This document shows positions 1,291 to 63,794 of a DNA stretch of 64,000 bases, in pieces. The notes under the pieces are model-generated. The model did no database searches. It was not told where the DNA came from and saw only the letters and a program-made list of their open reading frames with translations. Made by a program: the position numbers and the translations under genes. Position 1 is the first letter of the stretch. Every line of letters starts with the position of its first letter. This DNA is from Malacoraja senta (Eukaryota): assembly GCA_038087875.1 (NCBI GenBank), contig CM075995.1:8868001-8932000 (forward strand), in the 5' to 3' direction.

Positions 1291-1537
1291 ATGCGTGTAC
1301 TTTTGATATGGTGCATACCTACCAGTGTAATATATATATATTTTTAAGACATTAAAAATGTTGGTTGATTTCTGTCTATAACTTAATATATTAGTCAAAT
1401 GGTTTTTCTTTCACGCTGATCATTGTTTTAAAAGACAAAACATGGCAAAATACATTCCTGAATTGTAATATGGCCGGTCAAAGTTCCTAATTATCACATA
1501 GAAACAAGGAAGTGCAGATTCAGCTTTATACCAAAGA

Positions 1538-2135
1538 CAGAGTGCTGGAGTAACTCAGCGGGTCAGGCAGCATCTGTGGAGAACATGGATAGGTGACATT
1601 TCACAGAGTGCTGGAGTAACTCAGAGGGTCAGGCAGCATCTGTGGAGAACATGGATAGGTGACGTTTCACAGAGTGCTGGAGTAACTCAGGGGGTCAGGC
1701 AGCATCTGTGGAGAACATGGATAGGTGACGTTTCACAGAGTGCTGGAGTAACTCAGGAGGTCAGGCAGCTTCTCTGGAGAAAGTGGATGGATGACATTTC
1801 GCGTCGGGACAGTCTTCAGTCTGAAGCATCTTCATTTTTCAGTCTGAAGAAGGGTCCCGAACAGAAACGTCACCTATCCATGTTCTCCACAGATGCTGCC
1901 TGACCCGCTGAGTTACTCCAGCACTCTGTGAAACGTCACCTATCCATGTTCTCCACAGATGCTGCCTGACCCGCTGAGTTACTCCAGCACTCTGTGAAAC
2001 GTCACCTATCCATGTTCTCCACAGATGCTGCCTGACCCGCTGAGTTACTCCAGCACTCTGTGAAACGTCACCTATCCATGTTCTCCACAGATGCTGCCTG
2101 ACCCGCTGAATTACTCCAGCACTCTGTGAAACGTC
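1538..2135. repeat. Two head-to-head 66-bp arrays (about 4+4 units)
   Basis: 1538-1800 and 1864-2135 are in opposite orientation. Confidence 0.95.
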
Positions 2136-12395: not shown

Positions 12396-12935
12396 GAAGG
12401 GTCTTGACCCGAACCGTCACCCATTCCTTCTCTCCACAGATGCTGGCTGACCCGCTGAGTTACTCCAGCACTCTGTGAAACGTCACCTATCCATGTTCTC
12501 CACAGATGCTGCCTGATCCACTGAGTTACTCCAGCACTCTGTGAAACGTCACCTATCCATTTTCTCCACAGATGCTGCCTGACCCGCTGAGTTACTCCAG
12601 CACTCTGTGAAACGTCACCTATCCATGTTCCCCACATATGCTGCCTGACCCACTGAGTTACTCCAGCACTCTGTGAAACGTCACCTATCCATGTTCTCCA
12701 CAGATGCTGCCTGATCCACTGAGTTACTCCAGCACTCTGTGAAACGTCACCTATCCATTTTCTCCACAGATGCTGCCTGACCCGCTGAGTTACTCCAGCA
12801 CTCTGTGAAACGTCACCTATCCATGTTCCCCACAGATGCTGCCTGACCCACTGAGTTACTCCAGCACTCTGTGAAACGTCACCTATCCATGTTCTCCACA
12901 GATGCTGCCTGACCCGCTGAGTTCGTCCAGCATTT
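12396..12935 (+). repeat. 66-bp tandem array (~8 units)
   Basis: Starts with agaagggtcttgacccgaaccgtc. Confidence 0.95.
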
Positions 12936-13019
12936 TGTGTCTATCGTCGGTGTAAACCAGCACCTACAGTTCCTTCCTACACATTTTAAAAGCCATAATT
13001 TGCTGCATTTTATGTTTAA

Positions 13020-13530
<511 letters not shown>

Positions 13531-15727
13531 TTAACTTCATATACAAGGAAATACCGTGCTTAACATTGTATGTCAGTTGCTTATCTGACCTCGAAGGGAT
13601 CTATCGCAGTCGCTGCCTCAATAAGGCTGCCAACCTCATCACGGACCCACACCATCCTGGCCACACATTCATCTCTCCACTGCCATCAGGTAGAAGGTAC
13701 AGGAGCCTGGAATCTGTAACGTCCAGGTTCAGGAACAGCTGTTTCCCCACAGCCATCAGGCTATTAAACACGCCATTTGGCCCTTCGAGCCAGCACCGCC
13801 ATTCAGTGTGATCATGGCTGATCATCCACAATCAGTACCCCGTTCCTGCCTTCTCCCCATATCCCCTGACTCTGCTATTTTTAAGAGCCCTATCTAGCTC
13901 TCTCTTGAAAGCATCCAGAGAACCTGCCTCCACCGCCCTCCGAGGCAGAGAATTCCACAGACTCACCACTCTCTGTGTGAAAAAGTGTTTCCTCGTCTCC
14001 GTTCTAAATGGCTTACCCCTTATTCTTAAACTGTGGCCCCTGGTTCTGGACTCCCCCAACATCGGGAACATGCTTCCTGCCTCTAGCGTGTCCAAACCCT
14101 TAATAATCTTATATGTTTCAACAAGATCCCCCTCTCATCCTTTTAAACTCCAGAGTGTACAAGCCCAGCCGCTCCATTCTCTCAACATATGACAGTCCCG
14201 CCATCCCGGGAATTAACCTTGTAAACCTACGCTGCACTCCCTCAATAGCAAGAATGTCCTTCCTCAAATTAGGGGACCAAAACTACACACAATACTGCAG
14301 GTGTGGTCTCACTAGGGCCCTGTACCTACAATCCTGTACATCTTTGGGAGTGTGGGAGGAAACCGGGGCACCCGGAGAAAACCCACGCAGGTCACGGGGA
14401 GAACGTACGAACTCCGTACAGACAGCACCCGTAGTCAGGATTGAACCCGGGTCTCTGGCACTGTGAGGCAGCAACTCTACCGCTGTGCCACCCTAGTTTT
14501 AATTCATTCACATATTTTCTGTATTATTGCATTAACGGACCCACTAAGCTGAAGCAAGTGAGAGCTCAATTGTTCCATTGTTGGTAGATATGTCCAATAA
14601 GCACTATTGACTTCACATTTAAAATGACCCTCTTAAACTAACAGGGAAATTAGTGTTATAGAGTGATACAGCGTGGAAACAGGCCCTTCGGCCCAACTTG
14701 CCCACACCGGCCAACAGTGTCCAAGCTACACTCGTCCCACCTGCCAGCGCTTGGTCCATATCCCTCCAAACCTGTCCTATCCATGTACCTGTCCAACTGT
14801 TTCTTAAATGTTGGGATAGTCCCAGCCTCAACTACCTCCTCCGGCAGCTCGTTCCATACACCCACCACCCTTTGTGTGAAAAAGTTTCCCCTCAGATTCC
14901 TATTAAATCTTCTCCCCTTCACCTTAAACCCATGTCCTCTGGTCCTCGATTCCCCTACACTGGGGCATGAGACTCTGTGCATCTATCCGATCTATTCCCC
15001 TCATGATATTATACACCTCTATAAGACCACTCCCCATCCTCATGCGCTCCATGGAATAGACAATAGACAATAGGTGCAGGAGTAGGCCATTCGGCCCTTC
15101 GAGCCAGGACCGCCATTCAATGTGATCGTGGCTGATCATCCCCAATCAGTACCCCGTTCCTGCCTTCTCCCCTGACTATCTTTAAGAGCCCTATCTAGCT
15201 CTCGCTTGAAAGCATCCAGAGAACCTGCCTCCACCGCCCTCTGAGGTAGAGAATTCCACCGACTCGCCACTCTCTGTGAGAAAAAACGTTTCCTCGTCTC
15301 CGTTCTAAATGGCTTACTCCTTATTCTTAAACTGTGTCCCCTGGTTCTGGACTCCCCCAACATGGGGAACATGTTTCCTGCCTCTAGTGTGTCCAAACAC
15401 TTAACCATCTTATATGTTTCAATGAGATACCCTCTCATCCTTCTAAACTCCAGAGTGTACAAGCCCAGCCGCTCCATTCTCTCAGCATATGACAGTCCCG
15501 CCATCCCGGGAATTAACCTTGTGAACCTACGCTGCACTCCCTCAATAGCAAGAATGTCCTTCCTCAAATTAGGGGATGTTTGATGTTTTACGTGTCATTC
15601 TTAACTGTCACTGTATGTCGTTGTCACTTGCGGTCGGAGCACCAAGGCAAATTCCTTGTATGTGACAAGGCCAATAAACGTATTCATTCATATGCCCCAC
15701 CCACCACACACACACACAACCTCCTTA

Positions 15728-16984
<1,257 letters not shown>

Positions 16985-25515: not shown

Positions 25516-28251
25516 TCCCTCCACCACCTCCAGTTTAAATTCCATTTGAAATATTTTGGAAGACCAAGAAACCAAGAACCAAGAACACAACATACCAGAA
25601 ATTCAACATCTACTTATTTTCCAACTGCTTTCCTATGAAGTATCTTATTTAAAGCCGGATAATGTCCAAGTGTATAGTGTAGAGCTACAGGGAGAGGTTG
25701 AGTAGGCTGGGAGGTAGACAAAAGTGCTGGAGAAACTCAGCGGGTGCAGCAGCATCTATGGAGCGAAGGAAATAGGCAACGTTTTGGGCCGAAACCCTTC
25801 TTCAGACTAGGTACTTGAGCAGGCTGGGTCTCTATTCCTTGGAGCGCAGAAGGATGGGGGGTGATCTTGTAGAGGTGTACAATATCATAAGAGGAATAGA
25901 TCAGGTCTCTTGCCCATAGGTGAATCAAGGACCAGAGGACAAAGGTTTAAGGTGATGGGGTGGGGGGGGGGGGTGGGGGGTAGATCGGAACCCAATGGGT
26001 AACCTTTTCACACAAAGGGTGGGGGGTGTATGGAATGAGCTGCTGGAGGAGGTAGGCACTATTGTAATGGTTAAGAAGCAGTTAGACAGGTACATGGATA
26101 GGACAGGTTTAGAGGGATATGGGCCAAATGCAGGCAGGTGGGACTAGTGTCGATGGGATATGTTGGCTGGTTTGGGCAAGTTGGGCTGAAGGGCCTGTTT
26201 CCACACTATCACTCTATGACTCTATCTCAACACTTAATCACAGATTTGACATTTAATCAATAACATTGATGATTTGTACCACAATTCTTCCCTCTTGTAC
26301 ATCCCACGCTAATTCCTATCAATTAATTTAGGATCCACAGCGGTTTCATAATGTATTTTAATTCTAATTGTAAAATTCCCCAGGTGCTGACGAGACTAAC
26401 AAGGTTGTATTTACCCTTGTGAATGCACCACAGTGGCTCAGTTCAGTTTAGTTTATTGTCACGTGTACCAAGTGTACAGTGAAAAGCTTTTGTTGCGTGC
26501 TATCCAGTCAGAGGAAAGATTATACATGATTACAGTCGAGCCGTTCTCAGTGTACAGATAAATGATAAGGGAATAATGTTTAGTGCAAGGTAAAGCCAGC
26601 AAAGTCCAATCAAAGATAGTCCGAGGGTCACCAATGAGGTAGATAGCAGTTCAGCACTGCTCTCTGGTTGTGGTAGGATGGTTCAGTTGCCTGATAACAG
26701 CTGGGAAGAAACTGTCCCTGAATCTGGAGGTGTGCGCTTTCACACTTCTGTACCATTTGCCCGATGGGAGAGGGGGAGAAGAGAGAGTGACCGGGGGTGA
26801 GACTGGTCCTTGATGATGCTGCTGGCCTTGCCGAGGCAGCGTGAGGTGTAGATGGAGTCAATGGAAGGGAGGTTGGTTTGTGTGACGGTCTGGGCTGCGT
26901 CCACAATTCTCTGCAATTTCTTGTGGTCTTGGATGGAGCTGTTCCCAAACCGTGCCGCGATGCATCCCGATAAAATGCTTTCTACGGCGCATCTGTAGAA
27001 GTTGGTGAGACTTGTTTGTGAGAAGTTGTAAACGCACACCTCCAAATTTAGGGGACAGTTTCTTCCGGCTGTTATCAAGCAACTGAACCGTCCTCTCACC
27101 AACTAGAGAGCGGTCCTGACCTCCCAACTACCTCATTGGCGGCCTTCAAACTATCTTTAATCGGACCTGACTGGACTTTGCACTAAACATTATTCCCTTT
27201 ATCCTGTATCTGTACACTGTGGACGGCTTGACTAATCATGTATTGTCTTTCCACTGACTGGATAGCACGCAACAAAAGCTTTTCACTGTACCTCGGTACA
27301 CGTGACAATAATCTAAACTAAAATAAACAAGCGCATGAGAGGAATAGGTTGGGTAAACGCACAGAGTCTTTTGCCAAGAGTAGTGCAATCCAGAACCATA
27401 CGACATAGTTTAAGGCGAGGGGGGGGGGGGGGAAGTTTTAATAGGAACCTGAGGGGTAACTTTTTCTACAAAAAGGGAGGCGGGTGTACGGAACGAGCTG
27501 CCGGAAGAGGTAGTTGGGGCTGGGACTATCCAATGTTGAAAAGACATTAGAACAGGTACATGGATAGGACAGGTTTAGAGGGATATGGGCCAAGCATGGG
27601 CAGGTTGGACTAGTGTAGATCGGACATGTTGGGCAGTGTGGGCAAGTTGGGCCGAAGGCCTGTTTCCGCGCTCTACGACTCTATCCTGGCATCACGGGTA
27701 GATAGGGTGACAAAAAAGGCTCATGGCAGGCTGGCATTCATCAGTCAGGTTACTGGGTATAGAAGTTGGGTTGAGGACGTTCTCCTTCTCTCTCCGACGA
27801 GAGTTCTGCAGCATCCTCTCTCGCAGCTCGACCCGAAACGTGGCCCATTCCTTCTCTCCAGAGATGCTGCCTCACCCGCTGAGTTACTCCAGCACTCTGT
27901 GTCTATAGAAGTTGGGTTGTTATGTTATATTTGTACAAGGCATTGGTGAGGGGCGCACTTGGAGTATTGTGTTCAGTTTTGGTCTCCCTGCTGCAGGGTT
28001 GATGGCATAGACTCACTGAGTGACACAGCGGGCAAACAGGCCCTTTGTCCCATCTTGCCCAAACCGACCAACATGTCCCATCTGCACTAGTCCCACCTGC
28101 CTGCGTTTAGCCCACAGCCCTCCAAACCTGTCCTATCCATGTACCTATCTAACATTTGGATAGTCCCAGGCTCAACAACCTCCTCCGGCAGCCCGTTCCA
28201 TACACCCACCAGCCTTTGTGTAAAACAGGTCACCCCTCAGGTTCCTATTTA

Positions 28252-35304: not shown

Positions 35305-35790
35305 CAGAGTGAGGCCCAACGCAAATTGGAGGAACAGCACCTCATATTTCGCTTGGGCAGCTTACACCCCAGCGGTATGAACATTGACTTCTCCAACTTC
35401 AAGTAACCCTTGCTTCCCCTCTCTCTGGGTCCCTCCCCCACCCTAGTCGCGTACTAGTTTCACTGTCGACCGGTTAAGTTCCACTATCTGTATCTAGTCG
35501 TTATCACCGATTCCACTGCCTACAATGGAGCATTGTGGGCTCCACATTTCCTTGATTATCGTTGCTCTCTGCATATCTTCCACTCATTTATCCTAAGTAC
35601 CGTCTATATCTCTCGCTCCCCTCTCCCCTGACTCTCAGTCTGAAGACGGGTCTTGACCCAAAACGTCATCTATTGCATTTTGCTCCAGAACTGCTGCCTG
35701 ACCCGCTGAGTTATTCCAGCACTCTGTGAAACGTCACCTATCCATGTTCTCCACAGATGCTGCCTGACCCGCTGAGTTACTCCAGCACTG
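35305..35790 (+). mobile_element. Penelope-like element 3' end
   Basis: EAQRKLEEQHLIFRLGSLHPSGMNIDFSNFK* (GIY-YIG tail motif LxPxGxN), then UTR, CTGAAGA-stem-AAAACGTC and two 66-bp units. Confidence 0.75.
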
Positions 35791-36399
35791 TGTGTCTCTG
35801 CAGGGCTCCTGCCATGTTAATGAGCCATTCCAAAAATAAATTATTCATAATATTTTGAAAGCATAAAACCTAGAAAACGTATTAAAGTGAACCGTGTCAA
35901 AGAAATTACCACAGCAAAGGCAATACAGAGGGGAACAATTGGACTGTAAGTATAAATGCTTCTGGCTAATGCCTGCAGGCTCGAAGCGAATGAAATGTTA
36001 AATTCTGTTTTATTAAACCTGACTCTCAAGATTCCAACTGTGAGCCCGCACTTGGAGTACTGTGTTCAGTTTTGCCCACCCTGTTTGACCCTGTTAAGCT
36101 GGAAAGAGTGCAGAGATCATGTAGGAAGGAATTTGTGACGCTTCGGGCTGAGAAGAAGGGTCTCGACCAGAAACGTCACCCATTCCTTCCCTCCAGAGAT
36201 GCTGCCTCTGTCCCGCTGAGTTGCTCCAGCATTGAGTGTCTTATCTTCGGCAGGAAGGAACTGCAGATGCTGGTTTACGCCGAAGACAGACCCAAAAATG
36301 CTGGAGTAACTCGGCAGGACAGGTATCTGAAGAGGGTGACATCTCTTGACCCGAGATGTCACCTACACCTTTTCTCAAGAGTGCAGAGAAGATTTACGT

Positions 36400-36820
36400 T
36401 TAAGAAGGAACTGCAGATGCTGGAAAAATCGAAGGTAGACAAAAAAAATTGCTGGAGAAACTCAGCGGGTGAGGCAGCATCTATGGAGAGAAGGAATAGG
36501 CGACGTTTCGGGTCGAGACCCTTCTTCAGACTGATGTTGGGGGAGGGGGTGGGAAAAAGAAAGGAAGAGGCGGAGACAGTGGGCTGTGGGAGAGCTGGGA
36601 AGGGGAGGGGAAGGAGGGAGAAAGCAGGGACTACCTGAAATTGGAGAAGTCAATGTTCATACCGCTGGGGTGTAAACTACCCAAGCAAAATATGAGGTGC
36701 TGTTCCCCCAATTTACGGTGGGCCTCACTCTGGCCATGGAGGAGGCCCAGGACAGAAAGGCCGGATTCAGAATGGGAGGGGGAGTTGAAGTGCTGGGCCA
36801 CCAGGAGATCAGGTTGGTTA
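36400..36820 (-). mobile_element. Penelope-like element 3' end (duplicate at ~40420-40835)
   Basis: Same GIY-YIG tail plus an intact CTGAAGA AGGGTCTCGACCC GAAACGTC motif at ~36502-36529. Confidence 0.75.
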
Positions 36821-37464
36821 ATACGGAGAAGATTTACGAGGATGTTTCCGGGACTCGAGAGCCTGAGCTACTGGGATAAGTTGGGCAGGCTAAGACTCTA
36901 TTCCTTGGAGCGCAGGAGGATGAGGGGAGAGAGGTTGTGACATCATGTTGCGGTTGTACAAGACGTTGGTGAGGCTGCTTTGGGGGATTATGCTCAGTTT
37001 TGGTCACCCTGCTATAGGAAAGATGCTGTTAAGACTGTGGAGAATAGTGGCGAGGATGTTGCCAGGGCCTGAGCTACAGGGAGAGAGATTGGGCAGACTA
37101 GGACTTTGTTCCTGAATGCAGAAGGGCACAAGTTCATAGGTTCTAGGAGCAGAATTAGGCCATTCAGCCCATCAAGTGTACTCCATCATTCAATCATGGC
37201 TGATCTATTTTTCCCTCTCGACCCTATTCTCCTGCCTTCACCCCGTAACCCCTGACACCCGTAGTGATCAAGAATCTGTCAATCTCCGCCTCAAAAATAT
37301 CCATTAACTTGGCCTCCACAGCCTTCTGTGGCAAAGAATTCCACAGATTCACCACCCTCTGACTAAAGAAATTGCTTATCATCTCCTTTTTAAAGGTACG
37401 TCCATTTATTCTGAGGCTGCGCCCTCTGGTCCTAGACTCTCCCACTAGTGGACACATCCTCTCC

Positions 37465-37875
37465 TTAGTCCCCCTTCGGTCGTGGCTGGCCATGGGTGTC
37501 TCCAAGGTTGGAGGACGCCTGTGCGTGACTTTGTTTAACGTGGGGAGACTGGTGCACAGACAGCCCCCCCCACGGTCCTTGACAGATCTGGGTCAGGATC
37601 CAGTGGCATGGAGTCCAAGACGACCGGAGACCCTTTTCTGCTGCAGCCTTCATCCGCCTTCCCAGCCGTTGTGACGCTCCACTAAGGTCAGCCATCGTCC
37701 TCCGCCTGTTCCACCGTTGAGGTCTTGGTTGGATTGGCTCTTTGTCAGAGACCTCCCCCTCGACCTTACTGGCATGGGTGGGCCTACCAGGAGAATAGCT
37801 CCAGACGGCATCGCTCTCAGGATCTCAGGTCCACACAAGCTTCTCCACCACGACAAGGTGACAATCCACGGAGAA
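37465..37875 (-). mobile_element. Second copy of the RTE-derived element (duplicate at 41480-41889)
   Basis: 11-bp TSD acatcctctcc (37454-37464, 37876-37886) inside a CR1 fragment. Confidence 0.8.
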
Positions 37876-38038
37876 ACATCCTCTCCAGATCCGCTCTATC
37901 CAGGCCTTTCATTATTCGGTAAGTTTCAATGAGATCCCCCCTCAACCTTCTAAACTCCAGCGAGTACAGGCCCAGTGCCGTCAAACGCTCAGCATGGGTT
38001 AACCCACGAGGGTGAGGGGTGAGATGTTGGCATGGTAA

Positions 38039-38809
38039 TGGGCCTGTCCCACTTCGCCGATTTTTCAGCGGACTGCCAAGTTGCCGGCAGTCGTCTGAAA
38101 AACCGGCAACTGGAACAGCGACTGTCAGAGTGGAACACACACACACACACAAACACAAACACAAAGCTTCCTTCACCAGCCCATTATGCAGGCGGGGACA
38201 GGGTAAGCGGGGGGAGCGCTGTCTAAAAAATTCACACGGTGCAAAGCCAAGGTGATACAGACACACACCGCGATGAACGGGAAGGTTGGAGCTGTAATTA
38301 TGACGGCTAAAGCACAGTGTACGGTAACTCCTTTAAAATGGGGGGGGGGGGGGGGGAGAAGGTGGGAGAAGGAGTGGGGACAACCTTTAAGAAGTCTGTG
38401 AAGCTCGGCGGACATTTAACATTACCGGTCGGTTATCCTTGGTTCTGAAAACTACCGCTTACCTTTTTTTCCCCCGATGAGCCAATGAAATTCACCGGTC
38501 AGCACCGGCTACAACCTACGAGAACCTCTGAGAATCTTTGACCTCCTGGCAACCCACTAGGACCTCCTGGCGACCCACCTACGGCACGGGAATTCTCGCT
38601 ACTCTCCAGGGCGGCTTCATTCCAGTCGCCGCTAATTGTTCAACATGTTGAAAAATTCTCGGCGACCATAATGAGGCCGCGACTAGTTCCCAGAATGCGG
38701 GAACTCCTCACGACCATGAAGGCGACTCCCCGGCAACCACCCGCGAACATGTGGCGATCGCATAGTCTCCTGCAGTCGCCTAAAAAGTCGCCTAAGTGAG
38801 ACAGGCCCA
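38039..38809. mobile_element. PIF/Harbinger-type non-autonomous element (duplicate at 42053-42822)
   Basis: TIR tgggcctgtcccactt / aagtgagacaggccca, perfect TAA TSD. Confidence 0.85.
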
Positions 38810-39252
38810 TAAAAAGTTACAGTCATACAAGACATTGGTGAGGTCGCATTCGGAGCACTGTGTTGAGTTTTGCTCAACACTGTGAACGGAAGGATATCAT
38901 CAAGTTGGAAAGACTGCAGAGAAGATTTACAAGGATGTTGCCGGGACTCGAGGGCCTGAGGTGTAGGGGGAGGTTGAGCAGTCTAGGACTCTATTCCTTG
39001 GAGCCGCCGAAGATAAGAGATGATCTTACAGAGGTGTACAAAATCATGAGGCGGATTAGATCGGGTACTTGCACAGGGTAGAAGAATAAAGAACCAGAGG
39101 ACATAGGTTTAAGACAACATTTTCATTCAGAGGGTGGTGGGTAAATGGGACGAGCTGCCAGAGGAGGGAGTTGAGGCAGGTGCAATAACAAAGACATTTG
39201 AACAGGAGCATGAAGTCAAGAGTCACAGAGTCATACAGCACGGAAACAGGCT

Positions 39253-39615
39253 CCACAGATGCTGCCTGACCCGCTGAGTTACTCCAGCACTCTGAAACAT
39301 CACCTATCCATGTTCTCCACCGATGCTGCCTGACCCGCTGAGTTACTCCAGCACTCTGTGAAGCGTCACCTATCCACGTTCTCCACCGATGCTGCCTGAC
39401 CCGCTGAGTTACTCCAGCACTCTGTGAAGCGTCACCTATCCACGTTCTCCACCGATGCTGCCTGACCCGCTGAGTTACTCCAGCACTCTGTGAAACGTCA
39501 CCTATCCATGTTCTCCACCGATGCTGCCTGACCCGCTGAGTTACTCCAGCACTCTGTGAAGCGTCACCTATCCACGTTCTCCACCGATGCTGCCTCTAAG
39601 TTACTCCAGCACTCT
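39253..39615 (+). repeat. 66-bp tandem array (~5.5 units; ~2.5 units in the duplicate at 43263-43430)
   Basis: Directly visible. Confidence 0.95.
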
Positions 39616-39975
39616 ATCTATCCAGTAACATACCACTCATTAAATTTTACCAACCTTTTTACACCTTGTTTCGGTTTGCTGTTAGCCAGCTAATCTTCTA
39701 GCCCCACTGAAAATCTTTTATGCTATGAATTTTCTATTTCCATCAACCTTTCATGCCTTATCAATGTCTTCTCGAAATCTGTTCTCATTTATCTACAGTG
39801 TATTTTTCTTCGAACATAGAACTGAACACAGGAACAGGCCCACAGGAACAGGCCCACAATAACGGGCCCACAGGAACGGGCCCACAGGAACGGGCCCACA
39901 GGAACGGGCCCACAGGAACGGGCCCATAGCAACAGGCCCATAGCAACAGGCCCATAGCAACAGGCCCATAGCAAC

Positions 39976-40175
39976 NNNNNNNNNNNNNNNNNNNNNNNNN
40001 NNNNNNNNNNNNNNNNNNNNNNNNNNNNNNNNNNNNNNNNNNNNNNNNNNNNNNNNNNNNNNNNNNNNNNNNNNNNNNNNNNNNNNNNNNNNNNNNNNNN
40101 NNNNNNNNNNNNNNNNNNNNNNNNNNNNNNNNNNNNNNNNNNNNNNNNNNNNNNNNNNNNNNNNNNNNNNNNNNN
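39976..40175. other. Assembly gap (200 N)
   Basis: Run of N. Confidence 1.
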
Positions 40176-43100
40176 CGAAGGGCCCCAAACGTCACCCATT
40201 CCTTCTCTCCAGAGATGCTGCCTCTGTCCCGCTGAGTTGGCTCCAGCATTGAGTGTCTTATCTTCGGCAGGAAGGAACTGCAGATGCTGGTTTACGCCGA
40301 AGACAGACCCAAAAATGCTGGAGTAACTCGGCAGGACAGGTATCTGAAGAGGGTGACATCTCTTGACCCGAGATGTCACCTACACCTTTTCTCAAGAGTG
40401 CAGAGAAGATTTACGTTTAAGAAGGAATGCAGATGCTGGAAAAATCGAAGGTAGACAAAAAAAATTGCTGGAGAAACTCAGCGGGTGAGGCAGCATCTAT
40501 GGAGAGAAGGAATAGGCGACGTTTCGGGTCGAGACCCTTCTTCAGACTGATGTTGGGGGAGGGGGTGGGAAAAAGAAAGGAAGAGGCGGAGACAGTGGGC
40601 TGTGGGGAGAGCTGGGAAAGGGAGGGGAAGGAGGGAGAAAGCAGGGACTACCTGAAATTGGAGGTCAATGTTCATACCGCTGGGGTGTAAACTACCCAAG
40701 CGAAATATGAGGTGCTGTTCCCCCAATTTGCGCTGGGCCTCACTCTGGCCATGGAGGAGGCCCAGGACAGAAAGGTCGATTCAGAATGGGAGGAGGAGTT
40801 GAAGTGCTGAGCCACCGGGAGATCAGGTTGGTTAATACGGAGAAGATTTACGAGGATGTTTACGGGACTCGAGAGCCTGAGCTACTGGGATAAGTTGGGC
40901 AGGCTAAGACTCTATTCCTTGGAGCGCAGGAGGATGAGGGGGAGAGGTTGTGACATCATGTTGCGGTTGTACAAGACGTTGGTGAGGCTGCTTTGGGGGG
41001 ATTATGCTCAGTTTTGGTCACCCTGCTATAGGAAAGATGCTGTTAAGACTGTGGAGAATAGTGGCGAGGATGTTGCCAGGGCCTGAGCTACAGGGAGAGA
41101 GATTGGGCAGACTAGGACTTTGTTCCTGAATGCAGAAGGGCACAAGTTCATAGGTTCTAGGAGCAGAATTAGGCCATTCAGCCCATCAAGTGTACTCCAT
41201 CATTCAATCATGGCTGATCTATTTTTCCCTCTCGACCCTATTCTCCTGCCTTCACCCCGTAACCCCTGACACCCGTAGTGATCAAGAATCTGTCAATCTC
41301 CGCCTCAAAAAATATCCATTAACTTGGCCTCCACAGCCTTCTGTGGCAAAGAATTCCACAGATTCACCACCCTCTGACTAAAGAAATTGCTTATCATCTC
41401 CTTTTTAAAGGTACGTCCATTTATTCTGAGGCTGCGCCCTCTGGTCCTAGACTCTCCCACTAGTGGACACATCCTCTCCTTAGTCCCCCTTCGGTCGTGG
41501 CTGGCCATGGGTGTCTCCAAGGTTGGAGGACGCCTGTGCGTGACTTTGTTTAACGTGGGGAGACTGGTGCACAGACAGCCCCCCCCACGGTCCTTGACAG
41601 ATCTGGGTCAGGATCCAGTGGCATGGAGTCCAAGACGACCGGAGACCCTTTTCTGCTGCAGCCTTCATCCGCCTTCCCAGCCGTTGTGACGCTCCACTAA
41701 GGTCAGCCATCGTCCTCCGCCTGTTCCACCGTTGAGGTCTTGGTTGGATTGGCTCTTTGTCAGAGACCTCCCCTCGACCTTACTGGCATGGGTGGGCCTA
41801 CCAGGAGAATAGCTCCAGACGGCATCGCTCTCAGGATCTCAGGTCCACACAAGCTTCTCCACCACGACAAGGTGACAATCCACGGAGAAACATCCTCTCC
41901 AGATCCGCTCTATCCAGGCCTTTCATTATTCGGTAAGTTTCAATGAGATCCCCCCTCAACCTTCTAAACTCCAGCGAGTACAGGCCCAGTGCCGTCAAAC
42001 GCTCAGCATGGGTTAACCCACGAGGGTGAGGGGTGAGATGTTGGCATGGTAATGGGCCTGTCCCACTTCGCCGATTTTTCAGCGGACTGCCAAGTTGCCG
42101 GCAGTCGTCTGAAAAACCGGCAACTGGAACAGCGACTGTCAGAGTGGAACACACACACACACACAAACACAAACACAAAGCTTCCTTCACCAGCCCATTA
42201 TGCAGGCGGGGACAGGGTAAGCGGGGGGAGCGCTGTCTAAAAAATTCACACGGTGCAAAGCCAAGGTGATACAGACACACACCGCGATGAACGGGAAGGT
42301 TGGAGCTGTAATTATGACGGCTAAAGCACAGTGTACGGTAACTCCTTTAAAATGGGGGGGGGGGGGGGAGAAGGTGGGAGAAGGAGTGGGGACAACCTTT
42401 AAGAAGTCTGTGAAGCTCGGCGGACATTTAACATTACCGGTCGGTTATCCTTGGTTCTGAAAACTACCGCTTACCTTTTTTTTCCCCCGATGAGCCAATG
42501 AAATTCACCGGTCAGCACCGGCTACAACCTACGAGAACCTCTGAGAATCTTTGACCTCCTGGCAACCCACTAGGACCTCCTGGCGACCCACCTACGGCAC
42601 GGGAATTCTCGCTACTCTCCAGGGCGGCTTCATTCCAGTCGCCGCTAATTGTTCAACATGTTGAAAAATTCTCGGCGACCATAATGAGGCCGCGACTAGT
42701 TCCCAGAATGCGGGAACTCCTCACGACCATGAAGGCGACTCCCCGGCAACCACCCGCGAACATGTGGCGATCGCATAGTCTCCTGCAGTCGCCTAAAAAG
42801 TCGCCTAAGTGAGACAGGCCCATAAAAAGTTACAGTCATACAAGACATTGGTGAGGTCGCATTCGGAGCACTGTGTTGAGTTTTGCTCAACACTGTGAAC
42901 GGAAGGATATCATCAAGTTGGAAAGACTGCAGAGAAGATTTACAAGGATGTTGCCGGGACTCGAGGGCCTGAGGTGTAGGGGGAGGTTGAGCAGTCTAGG
43001 ACTCTATTCCTTGGAGCCGCCGAAGATAAGAGATGATCTTACAGAGGTGTACAAAATCATGAGGCGGATTAGATCGGGTACTTGCACAGGGTAGAAGAAT

Positions 43101-43642
43101 AAAGAACCAGAGGACATAGGTTTAAGACAACATTTTCATTCAGAGGGTGGTGGGTAAATGGGACGAGCTGCCAGAGGAGGGAGTTGAGGCAGGTGCAATA
43201 ACAAAGACATTTGAACAGGAGCATGAAGTCAAGAGTCACAGAGTCATACAGCACGGAAACAGGCTCCACAGATGCTGCCTGACCCGCTGAGTTACTCCAG
43301 CACTCTGAAACATCACCTATCCATGTTCTCCACCGATGCTGCCTGACCCGCTGAGTTACTCCAGCACTCTGTGAAGCGTCACCTATCCACGTTCTCCACC
43401 GATGCTGCCTCTAAGTTACTCCAGCACTCTATCTATCCAGTAACATACCACTCATTAAATTTTACCAACCTTTTTACACCTTGTTTCGGTTTGCTGTTAG
43501 CCAGCTAATCTTCTAGCCCCACTGAAAATCTTTTATGCTATGAATTTTCTATTTCCATCAACCTTTCATGCCTTATCAATGTCTTCTCGAAATCTGTTCT
43601 CATTTATCTACAGTGTATTTTTCTTCGAACATAGAACTGAAC

Positions 43643-47410: not shown

Positions 47411-48590
47411 CATTCTTGCCCCCAATTCTAGCCTCTAATGTTGGCCCCTAATTCTTGCCCTCTAATTCTAGCCCTCTAATTCTAGCCCTCTAATTCTAGC
47501 CCTCAATTCTAGCCCCAAATTCCAAGCCCCAAATTCTACCCTCTAATTCTAGCCCCTAATTCTAGTCTCTAATTCTAATTATAGCTCTCTAATTCTAGCC
47601 CCCTAATCATAGCCCTCTAATTCTAGCCTCTAATTCTTGCCCCTAATTCTAGCCCCCTAATTCTAGCCCCCTAATTCTAGCCCTCTAATTCTTGCCGCTA
47701 ATTCTAGCCCCCTAATTCTAGCCCTCTAATTCTAGCCCTCTAATTCTTGCCGCTAATTCTAGCCCCCTAATTCTAGCCCTCTAAATTCTACCCCTCTAAT
47801 TCTACCCCTCTAATTCTACCCCTCTAATTCTAGCCCCTAATTCTAGCCCCTAATTCTACCCTCTAATTCTACCCCTCTAATTCTAGCCCCCTCTAATTCT
47901 ACCCTCTAATTCTACCCCTCTAATTCTAGCCTCTAATTCTACCATCTAATTCTTACCCTCTAATTCTAGCCTCTAATTCTTGCCCCTAATTCTAGCCTCT
48001 AATTCTACCCTCTAATTCTAGCCCCTAATTCTAGCCCTCTAATTCTACCCCTCTAATTCTACCCCTCTAATTCTACCCCTCTAATTCTACCCCTCTAATT
48101 ATAGCCCCTAATACTAGCCTCTAATTCTATCTAATTCTAGCCTCTAATTCTAGCCCTCTAATTCTACCCCTCTAATTCTAGCCCCTAATTCTACCCCTCT
48201 AATTCTAGCCCCTAATTCTAGCCTCTAATTCTAGCCCCTAATTCTAGCCCTCTAATTCTACCCTCTAATTCTACCCCTCTAATTCTAGCCCCTAATTCTA
48301 GCCTCTAATTCTACCCTCTAATTCTAGCCCTCTAATTCTTGCCCCAAATTCTAATTCTAGCCCCTAATTCTAGCCCCCTAATTCTAGCCCCTAATTCTAG
48401 CCCCTAATTCTAGCCCCCTAATTCTAGCCCCCTAATTCTTGCCCCAAATTCTAATTCTAGCCCCTAATTCCAGCCCTCTAATTCTACCCTCTATTTCTAC
48501 CCCTCTAATTCTAGCCCCTCTAATTCTTGCCCCTAATTCTACCCTCTAATTCTACCCTCTAATTCTTACCCCAAATTCTAATTCTTGCCC
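47411..48590. repeat. ~1.2 kb minisatellite of a 12-14 bp unit (TAATTCTAGCCC[T]C)n
   Basis: Directly visible, with strong C/G strand skew. Confidence 0.95.
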
Positions 48591-49319: not shown

Positions 49320-49423
49320 CAGTTTCCTTTATCATCCTCACTTTTTTTGTGCATATTTCATTCATTTGTTCTATATTTCTCCACATCACCGTCCAAATCT
49401 CCTGTTTCCCTCTCCCTGACTCT

Positions 49424-49459
49424 CAGTCTGAAGAAGGGTCTCGACCCGAAACGTCACCT
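49424..49459 (+). ncRNA. Minimal type-I hammerhead ribozyme motif (Penelope-type) at the head of a 66-bp array
   Basis: CUGAAGA (49428-49434), A, stem II GGGU-CUCG-ACCC, GAAAC-GUC (predicted cut after 49455), with palindromic ACGU in place of stem III. Stem I is only ~2 bp, so activity is uncertain. Confidence 0.55.
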
Positions 49460-50160
49460 ATCCATGTTCCCCACAGATGCTGCCTGACCCGCTGAGTTAC
49501 TCCAGCACTCTGTGAAACGTCACCTATCCATGTTCCCCACAGATGCTGCCTGACCCGCTGAGTTACTCCAGCACTCTGTGAAACGTCACCTATCCATGTT
49601 CTCCACAGATGCTGCCTGACCCGCTGAGTTACTCCAGCACTCTGTGAAACGTCACCTATCCATGTTCCCCACAGATGCTGCCTGACCCGCTGAGTTACTC
49701 CAGCACTCTGTGAAACGTCACCTATCCATGTTCCCCACAGATGCTGCCTGACCCGCTGAGTTACTCCAGCACTCTGTGAAACGTCACCTATCCATGTTCC
49801 CCACAGATGCTGCCTGACCCGCTGAGTTACTCCAGCACTCTGTGAAACGTCACCTATCCATGTTCCAGCAGCATCTATGGAGCGAAGGAAATAGGCAACG
49901 TTTCAGCCCGAAACCCTTCCGGGTTTCGGCCCGAAACGTTGCCTATTTCCTTCAGGGTTTCGGCCCGAAAGTTTGCCCATTTCCTTCGCTCCACAGATGC
50001 TGCCTGACCCGCTGAGTTACTCCAGCACTCTGTGAAACGTCACCTATCCACGTTCTCCACAGATGCTGCCTGACCCGCTGAGTTACTCCAGCACTCTGTG
50101 AAACGTCACCTATCCATGTTCTCCCACAGATGCTGCCTGACCCGCTGAGTTACTCCAGCT
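49424..50160 (+). repeat. 66-bp tandem array with hammerhead head and internal fold-back cassette
   Basis: About 6 units + cassette (49868-50003) + about 3 units. Confidence 0.95.
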
Positions 50161-51854: not shown

Positions 51855-52225
51855 CACAGAGTGCTGGAGTAACTCAGCGGGTCAGGCAGCATCTGTGGAG
51901 AACATGGATAGTGACGTTTCACAGAGTGCTGGAGTAACTCAGCGGGTCAGGCAGCATCTGTGGAGAACATGGATAGGTGACGTTTCACAGAGTGCTGGAG
52001 TAACTCAGCGGGTCAGGCAGCATCTGTGGAGAACATGGATAGGTGACGTTTCACAGAGTGCTGGAGTAACTCAGCGGGTCAGGCAGCATCTGTGGAGAAC
52101 ATGGATAGGTGACGTTTCAGGTCGGGACCCTCGTTCAGATCGAAGGTGGTCGACTCTGAAGAAGGGTCCCATCCCAAAACGTCACCTATCCATGTTCTCC
52201 ACAGATGCTGCCTGACCTGCTGAGT
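51855..52225. repeat. 66-bp array (4 units) followed by an inverted partial unit
   Basis: Directly visible. Confidence 0.9.
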
Positions 52226-52426
52226 TTAGACTTTACTTTGGAATTGATTTACTTTGGAATTACTTTGGATATGAATGTTATACTGAATCATAGGCTTGAT
52301 ACGACAAGTAAAAAGAAGAATAAGAACCAGTTAACAAAACTACTAAACACTACCTGTGAAGAATTTGGTTTTCTTGATGTCTGGAGGAATTTTCACCCTC
52401 TAGAAAGAGACTATACAGATTACTCA

Positions 52427-60919: not shown

Positions 60920-61072
<153 letters not shown>

Positions 61073-61173: not shown

Positions 61174-61840
61174 CACAGAGTGCTGGAGTAACCCAGCGGG
61201 TCAGGCAGCATCTGTGGAGAACATGGATAGGTGACGTTTCACAGAGTGCTGGAGTAACTCAGCGGGTCAGGAAGCATCTGTGGAGAACATGGATAGGTGA
61301 CGTTTCACAGAGTGCTGGAGTAACTCAGCAGGTCAGGAAGCATCTGTGGAGAACATGGATAGGTGACGTTTCACAGAGTGCTGGAGTAACTCAGCGGGTC
61401 AGGAAGCATCTGTGGAGAACATGGATAGGTGACGTTTCACAGAGTGCTGGAGTAACTCAGCAGGTCAGGAAGCATCTGTGGAGAACATGGATAGGTGACG
61501 TTTCACAGAGTGCTGGAGTAACTCAGCGGGTCAGGCAGCATCTGTGGAGCGAAGGAAATGGGCAAACTTTCGGGCCGAAACCCTGAAGGAAATAGGCAAC
61601 GTTTCGGGCCGAAACCCGGAAGGGTTTCGGGCCGAAACGTTGCCTATTTCCTTCGCTCCATAGATGCTGCCGGAACATGGATAGGTGACGTTTCACAGAG
61701 TGCTGGAGTAACTCAGCGGGTCAGGTAGCATCTGTGGAGAACATGGATAGGTGACGTTTCACAGAGTGCTGGAGTAACTCAGCAGGTCAGGAAGCATCTG
61801 TGGAGAACATGGATAGGTGACGTTTCAGGTCGGGACCTTT
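61174..61840 (-). repeat. 66-bp tandem array with internal fold-back cassette, in the last intron of the TRNAU1AP-like gene
   Basis: Cassette at 61535-61670. Confidence 0.95.
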
Positions 61841-63794
61841 CTGTGGACCTTCTCTGAAGCTAGTGATCCAAAGAACAGCAGGCAAGTTTCCCCCACCCCA
61901 ACACAACTTCTTGCACGGAGATGGCAGTGTGCCTTTGCCGCAAGCTGCCAAAGGAGGTACTCGAGACAGACACTACAACACCATTTAAATTACACTTAAA
62001 AGCCAGTCTTCAATTATTGCATCAGTTGTGTAGTGCAGGCAAGATGCACATTAAAAAAAAAAAAAAAAATCTCAATATAAAGTTTTCTCCACTGTCAGAA
62101 ATTTCCCAACATGGGTCAGAGGGTGGTGAATATGTGGAATTCATTGCCACAGACAGTTGCGGAAGTCACGTCAGCAGATATATTTGTACGGCAGAGATAG
62201 ATAGATCCTTGATTAGTACGGGTGTCAGAGGTTATGGGGAGAAGGCAGGAGAATGTGGTTAGGAGGGAGATAGATCAGCCGTGAATGAATGACAGATTAG
62301 ACTCAATGGGCCGATTGGCCTCATTCTTTTCCTATCCCTTATGACCTTATGTACCCAGTATTGGTGGGAAGACACTTCCTTTATGATCTTATGACATGAA
62401 AAGTTAACAAATGTATTTTAAAGGTGGTTATTGTACTTGCTCTGGCAGTTTTGTTTTCCATATACCAAACACCCTCTGAAGAAACACAGGCTTGTAGGTT
62501 AATTGGCTTCTGTAAATTGTCCCTAGTGTGTGTAGGATAGTGCTAGTGTACGGGGTGATCGCTGGTCAGCGTGGACTCGGTGGGCCGAAGGGCCTGTTTC
62601 CACACTGTATCCCTGAAGTCTAAAGATACTAAACCTTCACTGCAAATCCAAACCGAGCACAATACCCCAAATGTGGCCTCAATGTCTTGTACAGATACTT
62701 GAAGCAATAAGTCAAATGGTGCAGATAACTAGAGATACACAGCACAGAAACAGGCCCTTCAGCCCAACTTGCCCACTGGCCAACATGCCCCATCTACACT
62801 AGTCCCACCTGCCTGCATTTGGCCCATATTCCTCTATATCCATGATATCCAAACATCACCCATTTTTTATCTCCAGAGATGCTGCCTGTCCCACTCCAGC
62901 AATCTGTGTCTATCAATGATAGGATACACATCTTCCTTAGGGCTTACTACAGGTTGGATGAGTGGGCAGATGCCGTTTAATGTGGATCAATGCGAGGTTA
63001 CTGAAAGTAAGCATGGAGGTACAGCAGGTAGTGATGAAAGTGAATGGCATGTTGGCCTTCATAACACGAGGAGTTGAGTATAGGAGCAAAGAGGTCCTTC
63101 CGCAGTTGTATTGGGTCGTAGTGAGACCACACCTGGAGTATTGTGTGCAGTTTTGGTCTCCAAATTCTTGCTATCAGGGAGTGCAGCGTAGGTTCACAAG
63201 GTTAATTCCCGGGATGGCAGGACTGTCATATGCTGAGCGAATGGAGCAACTGGGTTTGTATACTCCGGAATTTAGAAGGATGAGAGGATATCTTATTGAA
63301 ACATACAAGATTATTAAGGGTTTGGACACACTAGAGGCAGGAAACATGTTCCCGATGTTGGGGGAGTCCAGAACCAGGGGCCACAGTTTCAGAATAAGGG
63401 GCAAGCCAGTTAGAACGGAGATGAGGAAACACTTTTTCACACAGAGTGGTGAGTGTGGAATTCTCTGCCTCAGAGGGCGGCGGAGGCCGGTTCTCTGGAT
63501 ACTTTCAAGAGAGAGCAAGATAGGGCTCTTAAAGATAGCGGAGTCAGGGGATATGGGGAGAAGGCAGGAACGGGGTACCGATTGGGGATGATCAGCCATG
63601 ATCACATTGAATGGCAGTGCTGGCTCGAAGGGCCGAATGGCCTACTCCTGCACCTATTGTCTAAATCTAATTTCGCAGCGATAAATGAAAACAATTTTCT
63701 CAATATTTTTAGCTTTTCCAAGTCACCACAAACACAACAAATATCACAAGGACAGGCTGCGTAATGAAGAAATCAATGCTGAATATAGGCTCAC

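What the first reader, a model, noticed from the sequence alone, without database searches (positions are those of the whole stretch)
49868..50003. The same fold-back cassette sits at the same unit position in two arrays ~11.6 kb apart, in opposite orientation
Seen: 49868-50003 is, apart from a couple of substitutions, the reverse complement of 61535-61670. It is a palindrome of hammerhead halves from a different subfamily (gaaggaaataggcaacgtttc.gcccgaaaccc-ttcc-gggtttcggcccgaaacgttgcctatttccttc, plus a third half). It breaks the unit at the same base (ccatgttcc|), while unit counts on either side differ between the two loci. Inference: so complex a junction is unlikely to arise twice, so arrays either transpose with cargo or exchange sequence by ectopic gene conversion. 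This would also explain their homogeneity.
Basis: partly seen in the sequence, partly recalled or inferred. Interest (0 to 1): 0.7.

Follow-up and report, generated by a model that had tools for sequence, protein, structure and literature searches.

The report
Hairpin patch riding skate Penelope repeats
The two matching hairpins are real copies of one ribozyme-dead scrap of a Penelope-type jumping gene that was likely captured once into a 66-letter repeat in one skate lineage and then likely pasted as a short patch into many existing repeat arrays, so it can serve as a natural tag for how such arrays spread.

Summary
Confirmed: the two 136-bp stretches differ at 1 base, plus the base before. 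Each is a +124-bp insert at the same position of a 66-bp unit, with no unit base lost. The arms are heads of a sister Penelope-like end (one inverted, two tandem) without the CUGANGA core, so this is no ribozyme. Whole-array transposition fits poorly: flanks, heads and neighbouring unit variants differ, and at most 238 bp are shared. At locus 2 a private two-unit pattern continues across the cassette unit, as if it was added later. In public contigs, summed depth at the array-cassette junction is about 90-220 times higher in one run (X1, organism A) than in runs of two other organisms. It is therefore likely a lineage-specific multi-copy variant, and two copies in 64 kb need no local cause. 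Best reading: captured once, then pasted by homology into existing arrays, most likely by a borrowed Penelope reverse transcriptase (0.5). DNA conversion or circle re-integration remains open (0.28). No genome was available to count or map copies. The scan noted the same composite before in another genome (e1-9303182).

The parts
49866..49988 (+). Insert at locus 1 (123 nt plus a 1-bp overlap with the unit): inverted arm 1, arm 2, arm 3
49866..49919 (-). Arm 1: antisense, 5'-truncated head of the sister subfamily (starts inside the core at GAAG; central loop base differs from the solo copy)
   Evidence: compared with the solo sister copy at 25722-25809
49920..49953 (+). Centre base plus arm 2: sense head fragment, stem II + GAAAC to TTCCTTC (34-bp period with arm 3)
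49954..49988 (+). Arm 3: second sense head fragment with private variants (GAAAG, GCCC); passes into the array unit within the shared CTCCA
49448..50159 (+). Host 66-bp array 1: 6 units (5 with C at unit index 22), cassette unit 49844-50033, 1 full and 1 terminal unit
49428..49455 (+). Head of host 1 with an intact minimal hammerhead motif (CUGAAGA, stem II, GAAAC, GUC); 49375-49580 is 87% like 35586-35794, which follows a Penelope-like ORF end
61550..61672 (-). Insert at locus 2, same anatomy
61174..61826 (-). Host 66-bp array 2: units T34+T42, A34, cassette unit (consensus G34, C42), T34+T42, T34, T34+T42, T34, terminal unit
61827..61846 (-). Decayed head of host 2 (core lost, stem II remnant)
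60923..61056 (-). Last coding exon of a TRNAU1AP-like gene, about 115 nt downstream of array 2 on the same strand (upstream exons not located)
   Evidence: Pfam PF17654 E 5e-23

Best explanation
The cassette is a core-less fragment of Penelope-like element ends (one inverted and two tandem head pieces) that sits as a clean 124-bp insert in one 66-bp repeat unit; it was likely captured once in one skate lineage and then likely multiplied as a short cassette-bearing patch, most likely copied from RNA into existing arrays by a borrowed Penelope reverse transcriptase. Steps: (1) Shown: the 66-bp unit is the body of a Penelope-like end from GAAAC onward, without the ribozyme core, and the arrays sit between older, diverged heads and tails. 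(2) Inferred: an inverted-plus-tandem structure of a sister subfamily, the usual scar of Penelope insertion, existed first; its internal junction zone is covered in runs of three organisms. (3) Inferred: one such structure was copied into a unit, entering through the shared CTCCA on the right and leaving with a 1-bp overlap on the left. (4) Shown as relative depth only: this array-cassette junction is abundant in run X1 and at background in X9 and X14. (5) Inferred: read-through transcripts of arrays (array 2 lies on the sense strand just upstream of a host exon; tandem units occur in polyA RNA of organism H) serve as templates, the target array primes by homology, and a unit with its cassette is added without replacing neighbours. 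(6) Inferred: slippage and unequal exchange then change unit numbers locally.
For: Same break and same private arm variants at both loci. Flanks share nothing but common repeats; identity extends at most 55 bp left and 47 bp right of the cassette, 238 bp in all. All 5 T34 copies in the window lie in array 2, on both sides of the cassette but not in the cassette unit, and the two-unit phase resumes after it; 5 of 6 exact C22 copies lie in array 1. Heads are more diverged than units even without CpG sites: 6 of 62 against 14 of 744 (most diverged unit of each of 12 arrays), P = 0.003. A Penelope-like ORF end lies upstream of 5 of 13 heads examined, 4 of them independent. Summed contig depth on the unit side of the left junction (61678-61689): X1 238,000-286,000, sloping away from the junction; X9 2,500 and X14 1,300, flat and of the size of split plain units; same trend (X1 up to 401,000; X5, X7, X9 38,000-84,000 at 85% likeness). 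Inverted 5'-truncated copies with palindromic head-to-head junctions and partial tandems are the published Penelope signature (PMC3846280, PMC8557442, passages). A purified Penelope-like protein cuts a target taken from its own ORF-pLTR junction and inserts without needing ribozyme cleavage (PMC11167929, parts 1-2). Palindromes are break-prone (PMC7999016, passages); by the general rule that the broken copy is the one overwritten (recalled), pure DNA conversion would tend to erase the cassette, not spread it.
Against: No direct sign of an RNA intermediate: no convincing target-site duplication at either locus (best chance-level matches 8 and 6 bp), no intact Penelope ORF in the window, and the one raw RNA run laid (X21, organism H, about 6% read) has depth of about 0-8 over the cassette interior. 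The 'added, not replaced' pattern rests on one locus. Summed contig depth is not a copy number (tool's warning), no listed contig piece spans the left junction, and organism A is not shown to be the window's species. Both window copies share T at 49972 while X1 shows G in 607,525 of 662,595 depth, which would fit local copying or a species difference; one search did not list this difference, so it is unresolved. In vitro the anole protein starts reverse transcription at a site not homologous to the cut DNA (PMC11167929), which is against homology priming.
Confidence: 0.5

Rival explanations
1. DNA-level exchange: a break in a cassette-free array is repaired from a cassette-bearing array elsewhere (ectopic conversion or synthesis-dependent annealing with out-of-register re-entry), or an excised DNA circle of units with the cassette re-integrates by homology. 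The patch anatomy is the same; no RNA step is involved.
For: Short shared tract, unrelated flanks, no target-site duplication. Shared T at 49972 between the two neighbours could mean local copying. Conserved inversion points in satellite arrays on different chromosomes of Tribolium were explained by DNA circles and 3D contacts (PMC12581902, passages).
Against: The fragile, hairpin-bearing copy should be the one that breaks and is overwritten (inference from PMC7999016 and recalled repair rules), yet the junction is abundant in X1. With 80 unit-like bodies in the window and a rough junction-to-unit ratio of 0.45-0.9%, a second copy is expected 30-51% of the time without clustering (the ratio mixes and is rough).
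Confidence: 0.28
2. Whole arrays retrotransposed with the cassette as cargo, and each locus then changed its units locally, erasing the shared context.
For: Arrays have Penelope-like heads and tails; 5 of 14 arrays (4 independent) lack a head, like 5'-truncated insertions; two head-to-head pairs occur in the window.
Against: Heads and tails of the two loci differ. The T34+T42 haplotype would have had to spread to both sides of the cassette while skipping the cassette unit, within a time in which the cassettes drifted only 2 of 137 bases.
Confidence: 0.14
3. The cassette is an independent MITE-like element that inserts again and again at this unit position.
For: The 136-bp stretch has about 37-bp terminal inverted repeats; the inner structure appears in runs of other organisms without the array junction.
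Against: The outer 15 bp of the right inverted repeat are host-unit sequence; read as a MITE, the insertion would delete 13 bp and leave no duplication; the real insert is asymmetric with a homologous right joint. No free copy in the window.
Confidence: 0.04
4. One copy is an assembly or polishing artefact.
For: The assembly has a gap with a 4-kb near-duplicate on either side at 36171-43430; no read spanning either locus was seen.
Against: The copies differ at 2 sites, have different neighbours and flanks, and the junction is abundant in independent short-read contigs.
Confidence: 0.03

Closest known systems
EN+ Penelope-like elements: pLTR with minimal hammerhead, partial tandems, inverted 5'-truncated copy (PMC3846280, PMC4209133, PMC8557442; passages read)
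   Same: Arms and units are pLTR-type sequence; several solo heads follow a Penelope-like ORF end; cassette = inverted copy next to a partial tandem, with a palindromic head-to-head junction.
   Different: Only 124 bp, no ORF, no ribozyme core, no target-site duplication found; it is frozen as cargo inside a tandem repeat of a sister subfamily and multiplied in that form.
Animal non-LTR retrozymes (Li, Clavereau, Pollet 2026, 10.64898/2026.07.22.740005; parts 1 and 3 of 5 and passages read, supplements closed)
   Same: Short non-coding tandem arrays derived from Penelope pLTRs, dispersed, mostly few units, proposed to borrow Penelope enzymes; reported from one cartilaginous fish (mean consensus 363 bp).
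   Different: Retrozymes have a full hammerhead in each unit; the 66-bp unit has only GAAAC-GUC and no CUGANGA or stem II, so by that paper's definition it would be missed.
Satellite arrays with conserved inversion points on non-homologous chromosomes, Tribolium TfSat01/03 (PMC12581902, passages read)
   Same: A complex junction shared by separate arrays is taken as the mark of copying between arrays.
   Different: Those are megabase centromeric satellites with DNA circles shown; here arrays have 2-9 units, lie among genes and derive from a retroelement end.
Conversion of old Alu copies by young subfamilies (recalled; not found)
   Same: Young sequence written into an older homologous copy.
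   Different: Alu conversion replaces sequence; here a unit appears to be added and arrays grow.

Membership tests
Hammerhead ribozyme (cassette itself) | CUGANGA core 5' of stem II | tested here: not met
   No CTGANGA on either strand of either cassette; Rfam no hit
Non-LTR retrozyme | Complete type I hammerhead in consecutive tandem units | tested here: not met
   Doubled unit has no core on either strand
Non-LTR retrozyme | Derived from a Penelope pLTR, non-coding, dispersed tandem arrays | tested here: met
   14 arrays in 64 kb; pLTR context
Non-LTR retrozyme | Circular RNA and self-cleavage | not testable with these tools
   Only one raw polyA run of another organism was laid
Penelope-like non-autonomous derivative | Homology to the end that follows the GIY-YIG ORF terminus | tested here: met
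   One conserved ORF end upstream of 5 of 13 heads. Its identity as the GIY-YIG terminus is recalled and backed only by a lead: nearest named Atlas cluster GIY-YIG in 15% of members, score 0.90; Pfam gave no hit
Penelope-like non-autonomous derivative | Minimal hammerhead motif in the pLTR | tested here: met
   7 motif matches in heads, including host 1 at 49428; motif by pattern only, the monomer does not fold into it
Penelope-like non-autonomous derivative | Inverted 5'-truncated copy beside a partial tandem | tested here: met
   Cassette anatomy; two more head-to-head pairs
Penelope-like non-autonomous derivative | Target-site duplication (optional in published copies) | tested here: inconclusive
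   Only 6-8-bp chance-level matches
Penelope-like non-autonomous derivative | Intact partner RT-endonuclease in the genome | not testable with these tools
   No genome held; none among 44 ORFs of 150 aa or more in the window, judged by eye
MITE | Both terminal inverted repeats inside the insert, flanked by a target-site duplication | tested here: not met
   Right repeat ends in host-unit sequence; 1-bp overlap only
Inverted segmental duplication | Shared unique flanks | tested here: not met
   About 2.2-2.4 kb on each side share only dispersed repeats

The most novel reading that the evidence does not exclude
The 66-bp repeat is a ribozyme-less parasite of Penelope ends: each unit keeps only the substrate half of the hammerhead (the GUC cut site), is cut by the core of an old head or another pLTR RNA, and is written by a Penelope reverse transcriptase into homologous old ends and arrays throughout the genome. 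The cassette is then a lineage-specific barcode recording thousands of RNA-templated homing events in a vertebrate germline. One array (1864-2135, 1 of 14) ends exactly at the predicted cut site.
Probability: 0.2. Interest if true: 0.72.

Novelty: new variant of a known kind. Interest (0 to 1): 0.4.

Why it matters
How short satellite-like arrays reach new loci and stay alike is a long-standing question, and how Penelope-like enzymes choose targets is barely known. A complex junction that arose once in one lineage works as a tag: every tagged array marks one transfer event, and tagged versus untagged alleles or orthologous loci show whether a unit was added or replaced and how long the copied tract was. 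That makes RNA-templated versus DNA-templated spread testable with existing skate genomes. The parts are known kinds, the element has no evident host function, and the scan has noted the composite before, so interest is moderate.

Tried and rejected
No whole genome is held, so copies could not be counted or mapped. Exact-pattern scans found 0 loci in metagenome contigs, viral contigs and prokaryote genomes, as expected for fish DNA. Look-ups of earlier findings by sequence and by relatives gave nothing. Rfam: 0 hits. Pfam on the 64-aa ORF end: 0 hits. Target-site duplication searches gave only 6-8-bp chance-level matches. I first read both differences as CpG decay at locus 1; that holds for 49905, but A at 49867 also equals the sister subfamily's base, so its direction is open. 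The read-start pile-up at 61585 in X21 is where ordinary sister elements stop matching; rejected as a cleavage signal. Contig pieces across the fold-back centre in X9 and X14 reach about 30 letters per side, just under the tool's 31-letter standard, and could include library fold-backs, so they are a hint only. Of 21 runs listed, 6 were laid (X1, X5, X7, X9, X14, X21); 15 were not. Literature searches showed no paper describing this skate repeat or cassette; subscription papers, Repbase/Dfam and the bioRxiv supplements of Li et al. 2026, which list retrozyme families and might hold related sequences, could not be seen.

Full report
Observation. The two stretches are 136 nt each and differ at one base, 49905 A against G; the base before also differs. 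Against the 66-bp unit each is a net insert of 124 bp: 22 unit bases match on the left and 45 on the right, so no unit base is lost and one C is shared. Unit counts are 6 before and 2 after at locus 1, and 2 before and 5 after at locus 2. The strand folds back strongly (DNA -52 kcal/mol, z -12.7; RNA -91 and -101). There is no third copy in the window.

What the parts are. The window holds 14 arrays of the 66-bp unit and many solo relatives. Upstream of 5 of 13 heads examined (4 independent) lies one conserved ORF end. I recall it as the end of a Penelope-like GIY-YIG endonuclease; the Atlas gives only a lead for this (nearest named cluster GIY-YIG in 15% of members) and Pfam gives nothing. 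Seven heads match a minimal hammerhead pattern, as described for Penelope pLTRs (PMC4209133, passages). The unit begins at GAAAC and lacks the core and stem II. The cassette is built from heads of a sister subfamily (solo copy at 25722-25809): one inverted arm cut inside the core, then two sense fragments, the last passing into the array unit within CTCCA. It has no CUGANGA on either strand, so it is not a ribozyme. An inverted truncated copy beside a partial tandem, with a palindromic head-to-head junction, is the published scar of Penelope insertion (PMC3846280, PMC8557442, passages). The skate label comes from an earlier scan note on this genome (e1-8584256) and from my recall of the repeat; I did not test it.

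What the two loci share. About 2.2-2.4 kb on each side share only dispersed repeats. Heads and tails differ. Identity runs at most 55 bp left and 47 bp right of the cassette. Five of six exact C22 units in the window are in array 1, all upstream of the cassette; all five T34 units are in array 2. In array 2 the order is T34+T42, A34, cassette unit with consensus G34 and C42, T34+T42, T34, T34+T42, T34. The two-unit phase resumes after the cassette unit, which is most simply read as one foreign unit added to an existing array. This rests on a single locus. Across the window, heads are more diverged than units: 6 of 62 non-CpG stem sites in 8 heads (the locus-1 head served as reference and was left out) against 14 of 744 in the most diverged unit of each of 12 arrays, P = 0.003. 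So arrays are younger than, or are kept more alike than, their hosts. The lead for this test came from note e1-9303182.

Outside the window. No genome is held and four pattern scans found nothing. The run index listed 21 runs, 20 of which hold part of the stretch, with X1 (organism A) highest at 0.81; six were laid. At 95% likeness the unit side of the left junction has summed depth 238,000-286,000 in X1, falling away from the junction, against a flat 2,500 in X9 and 1,300 in X14 (ratios 93-223). The listed joints from split plain units sum to about 4,000 in X1 and to about half the signal in X9 and X14, so only X1 shows the junction. One search shows the same trend against X5, X7 and X9. The inner arm 2/arm 3 zone (61570-61581) is covered in all three contig runs (X1 589,000-715,000; X9 171,000-382,000; X14 59,000-141,000), which suggests that the fold-back family is older than its link to the array. 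In polyA reads of organism H (X21), 130 reads run from the end of one unit stretch back to the start of the next, but the cassette interior has depth of about 0-8.

Is closeness meaningful? With 80 unit-like bodies in the window and a rough junction-to-unit ratio of 0.45-0.9%, a second cassette is expected 30-51% of the time, so proximity alone is weak evidence. Against this, both copies have T at 49972, where X1 shows G in 607,525 of 662,595 depth. One search did not list that difference, although 6 of 7 long X1 pieces over the site carry two other letters, which fits it. The two copies may be close kin, or the window's species may differ from A.

Mechanism. Single origin and spread as a short patch are well supported (about 0.8 together). 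For the copying step I favour RNA templating by a Penelope-like enzyme acting in trans (0.5): all parts are Penelope ends, arrays are transcribed, the anole protein cuts a target from its own ORF-pLTR junction and needs no ribozyme cleavage (PMC11167929, parts 1-2), and a break-prone palindrome (PMC7999016, passages) should be lost, not multiplied, under plain DNA conversion (inference). Against it: no duplication scars, no partner ORF seen, no cassette RNA seen, and that protein starts copying at a non-homologous site in vitro. DNA conversion or circle re-integration, as argued for shared inversion points in Tribolium satellites (PMC12581902, passages), gets 0.28; whole-array transposition 0.14; MITE 0.04; artefact 0.03.

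Comparison and novelty. It works like a non-autonomous Penelope derivative and resembles animal retrozymes (10.64898/2026.07.22.740005, parts 1 and 3 and passages) but fails their defining test, a full hammerhead in each unit. Seven literature searches showed no description of this repeat or cassette; repeat databases and that preprint's supplements were not visible. The scan reported the same composite at 7 loci in 64 kb of another genome (e1-9303182, unchecked AI note; a lead, not support). Verdict: real, a new variant of a known kind, useful mainly as a tag for testing array spread. Interest 0.4.

Noticed in passing
window 1864-2135 (+): This array ends exactly after GAAACGTC, the predicted hammerhead cut site (1 of 14 arrays).
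   Followed up: no
window 1537-2135 and 51855-52228: Two head-to-head pairs of the same end family; the paired heads differ from each other, and in the second pair only one arm carries an array. No target-site duplication found.
   Followed up: partly
window 12411-12939 and 61240-61826: Higher-order periods inside arrays: three units (198 bp) and two units (132 bp).
   Followed up: partly
window 49448-49866: C22 units pile up only upstream of the cassette, and the junction itself reads C at that index; they could be slippage products from the hairpin foot. C22 also occurs in the cassette-free array at 12411.
   Followed up: partly
window 36171-43430: Near-identical (99%) 4-kb tandem duplicate on either side of the only N gap (39976-40175); may be an uncollapsed haplotype.
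   Followed up: no
66-bp arrays, antisense strand: The unit is 22 codons with one open frame on the antisense strand, giving long spurious ORFs that could mislead gene callers.
   Followed up: no
window 60923-61056 (-); 13078-13530 and 15725-16984 (-): Host exons: TRNAU1AP-like last exon (Pfam); exons of a membrane protein that I recall as TMEM108-like (not tested), with a sister-element fragment at 16297-16364 inside the long exon's frame.
   Followed up: partly
window 47412-48580: Unrelated 13/14-bp minisatellite, about 85 copies.
   Followed up: no
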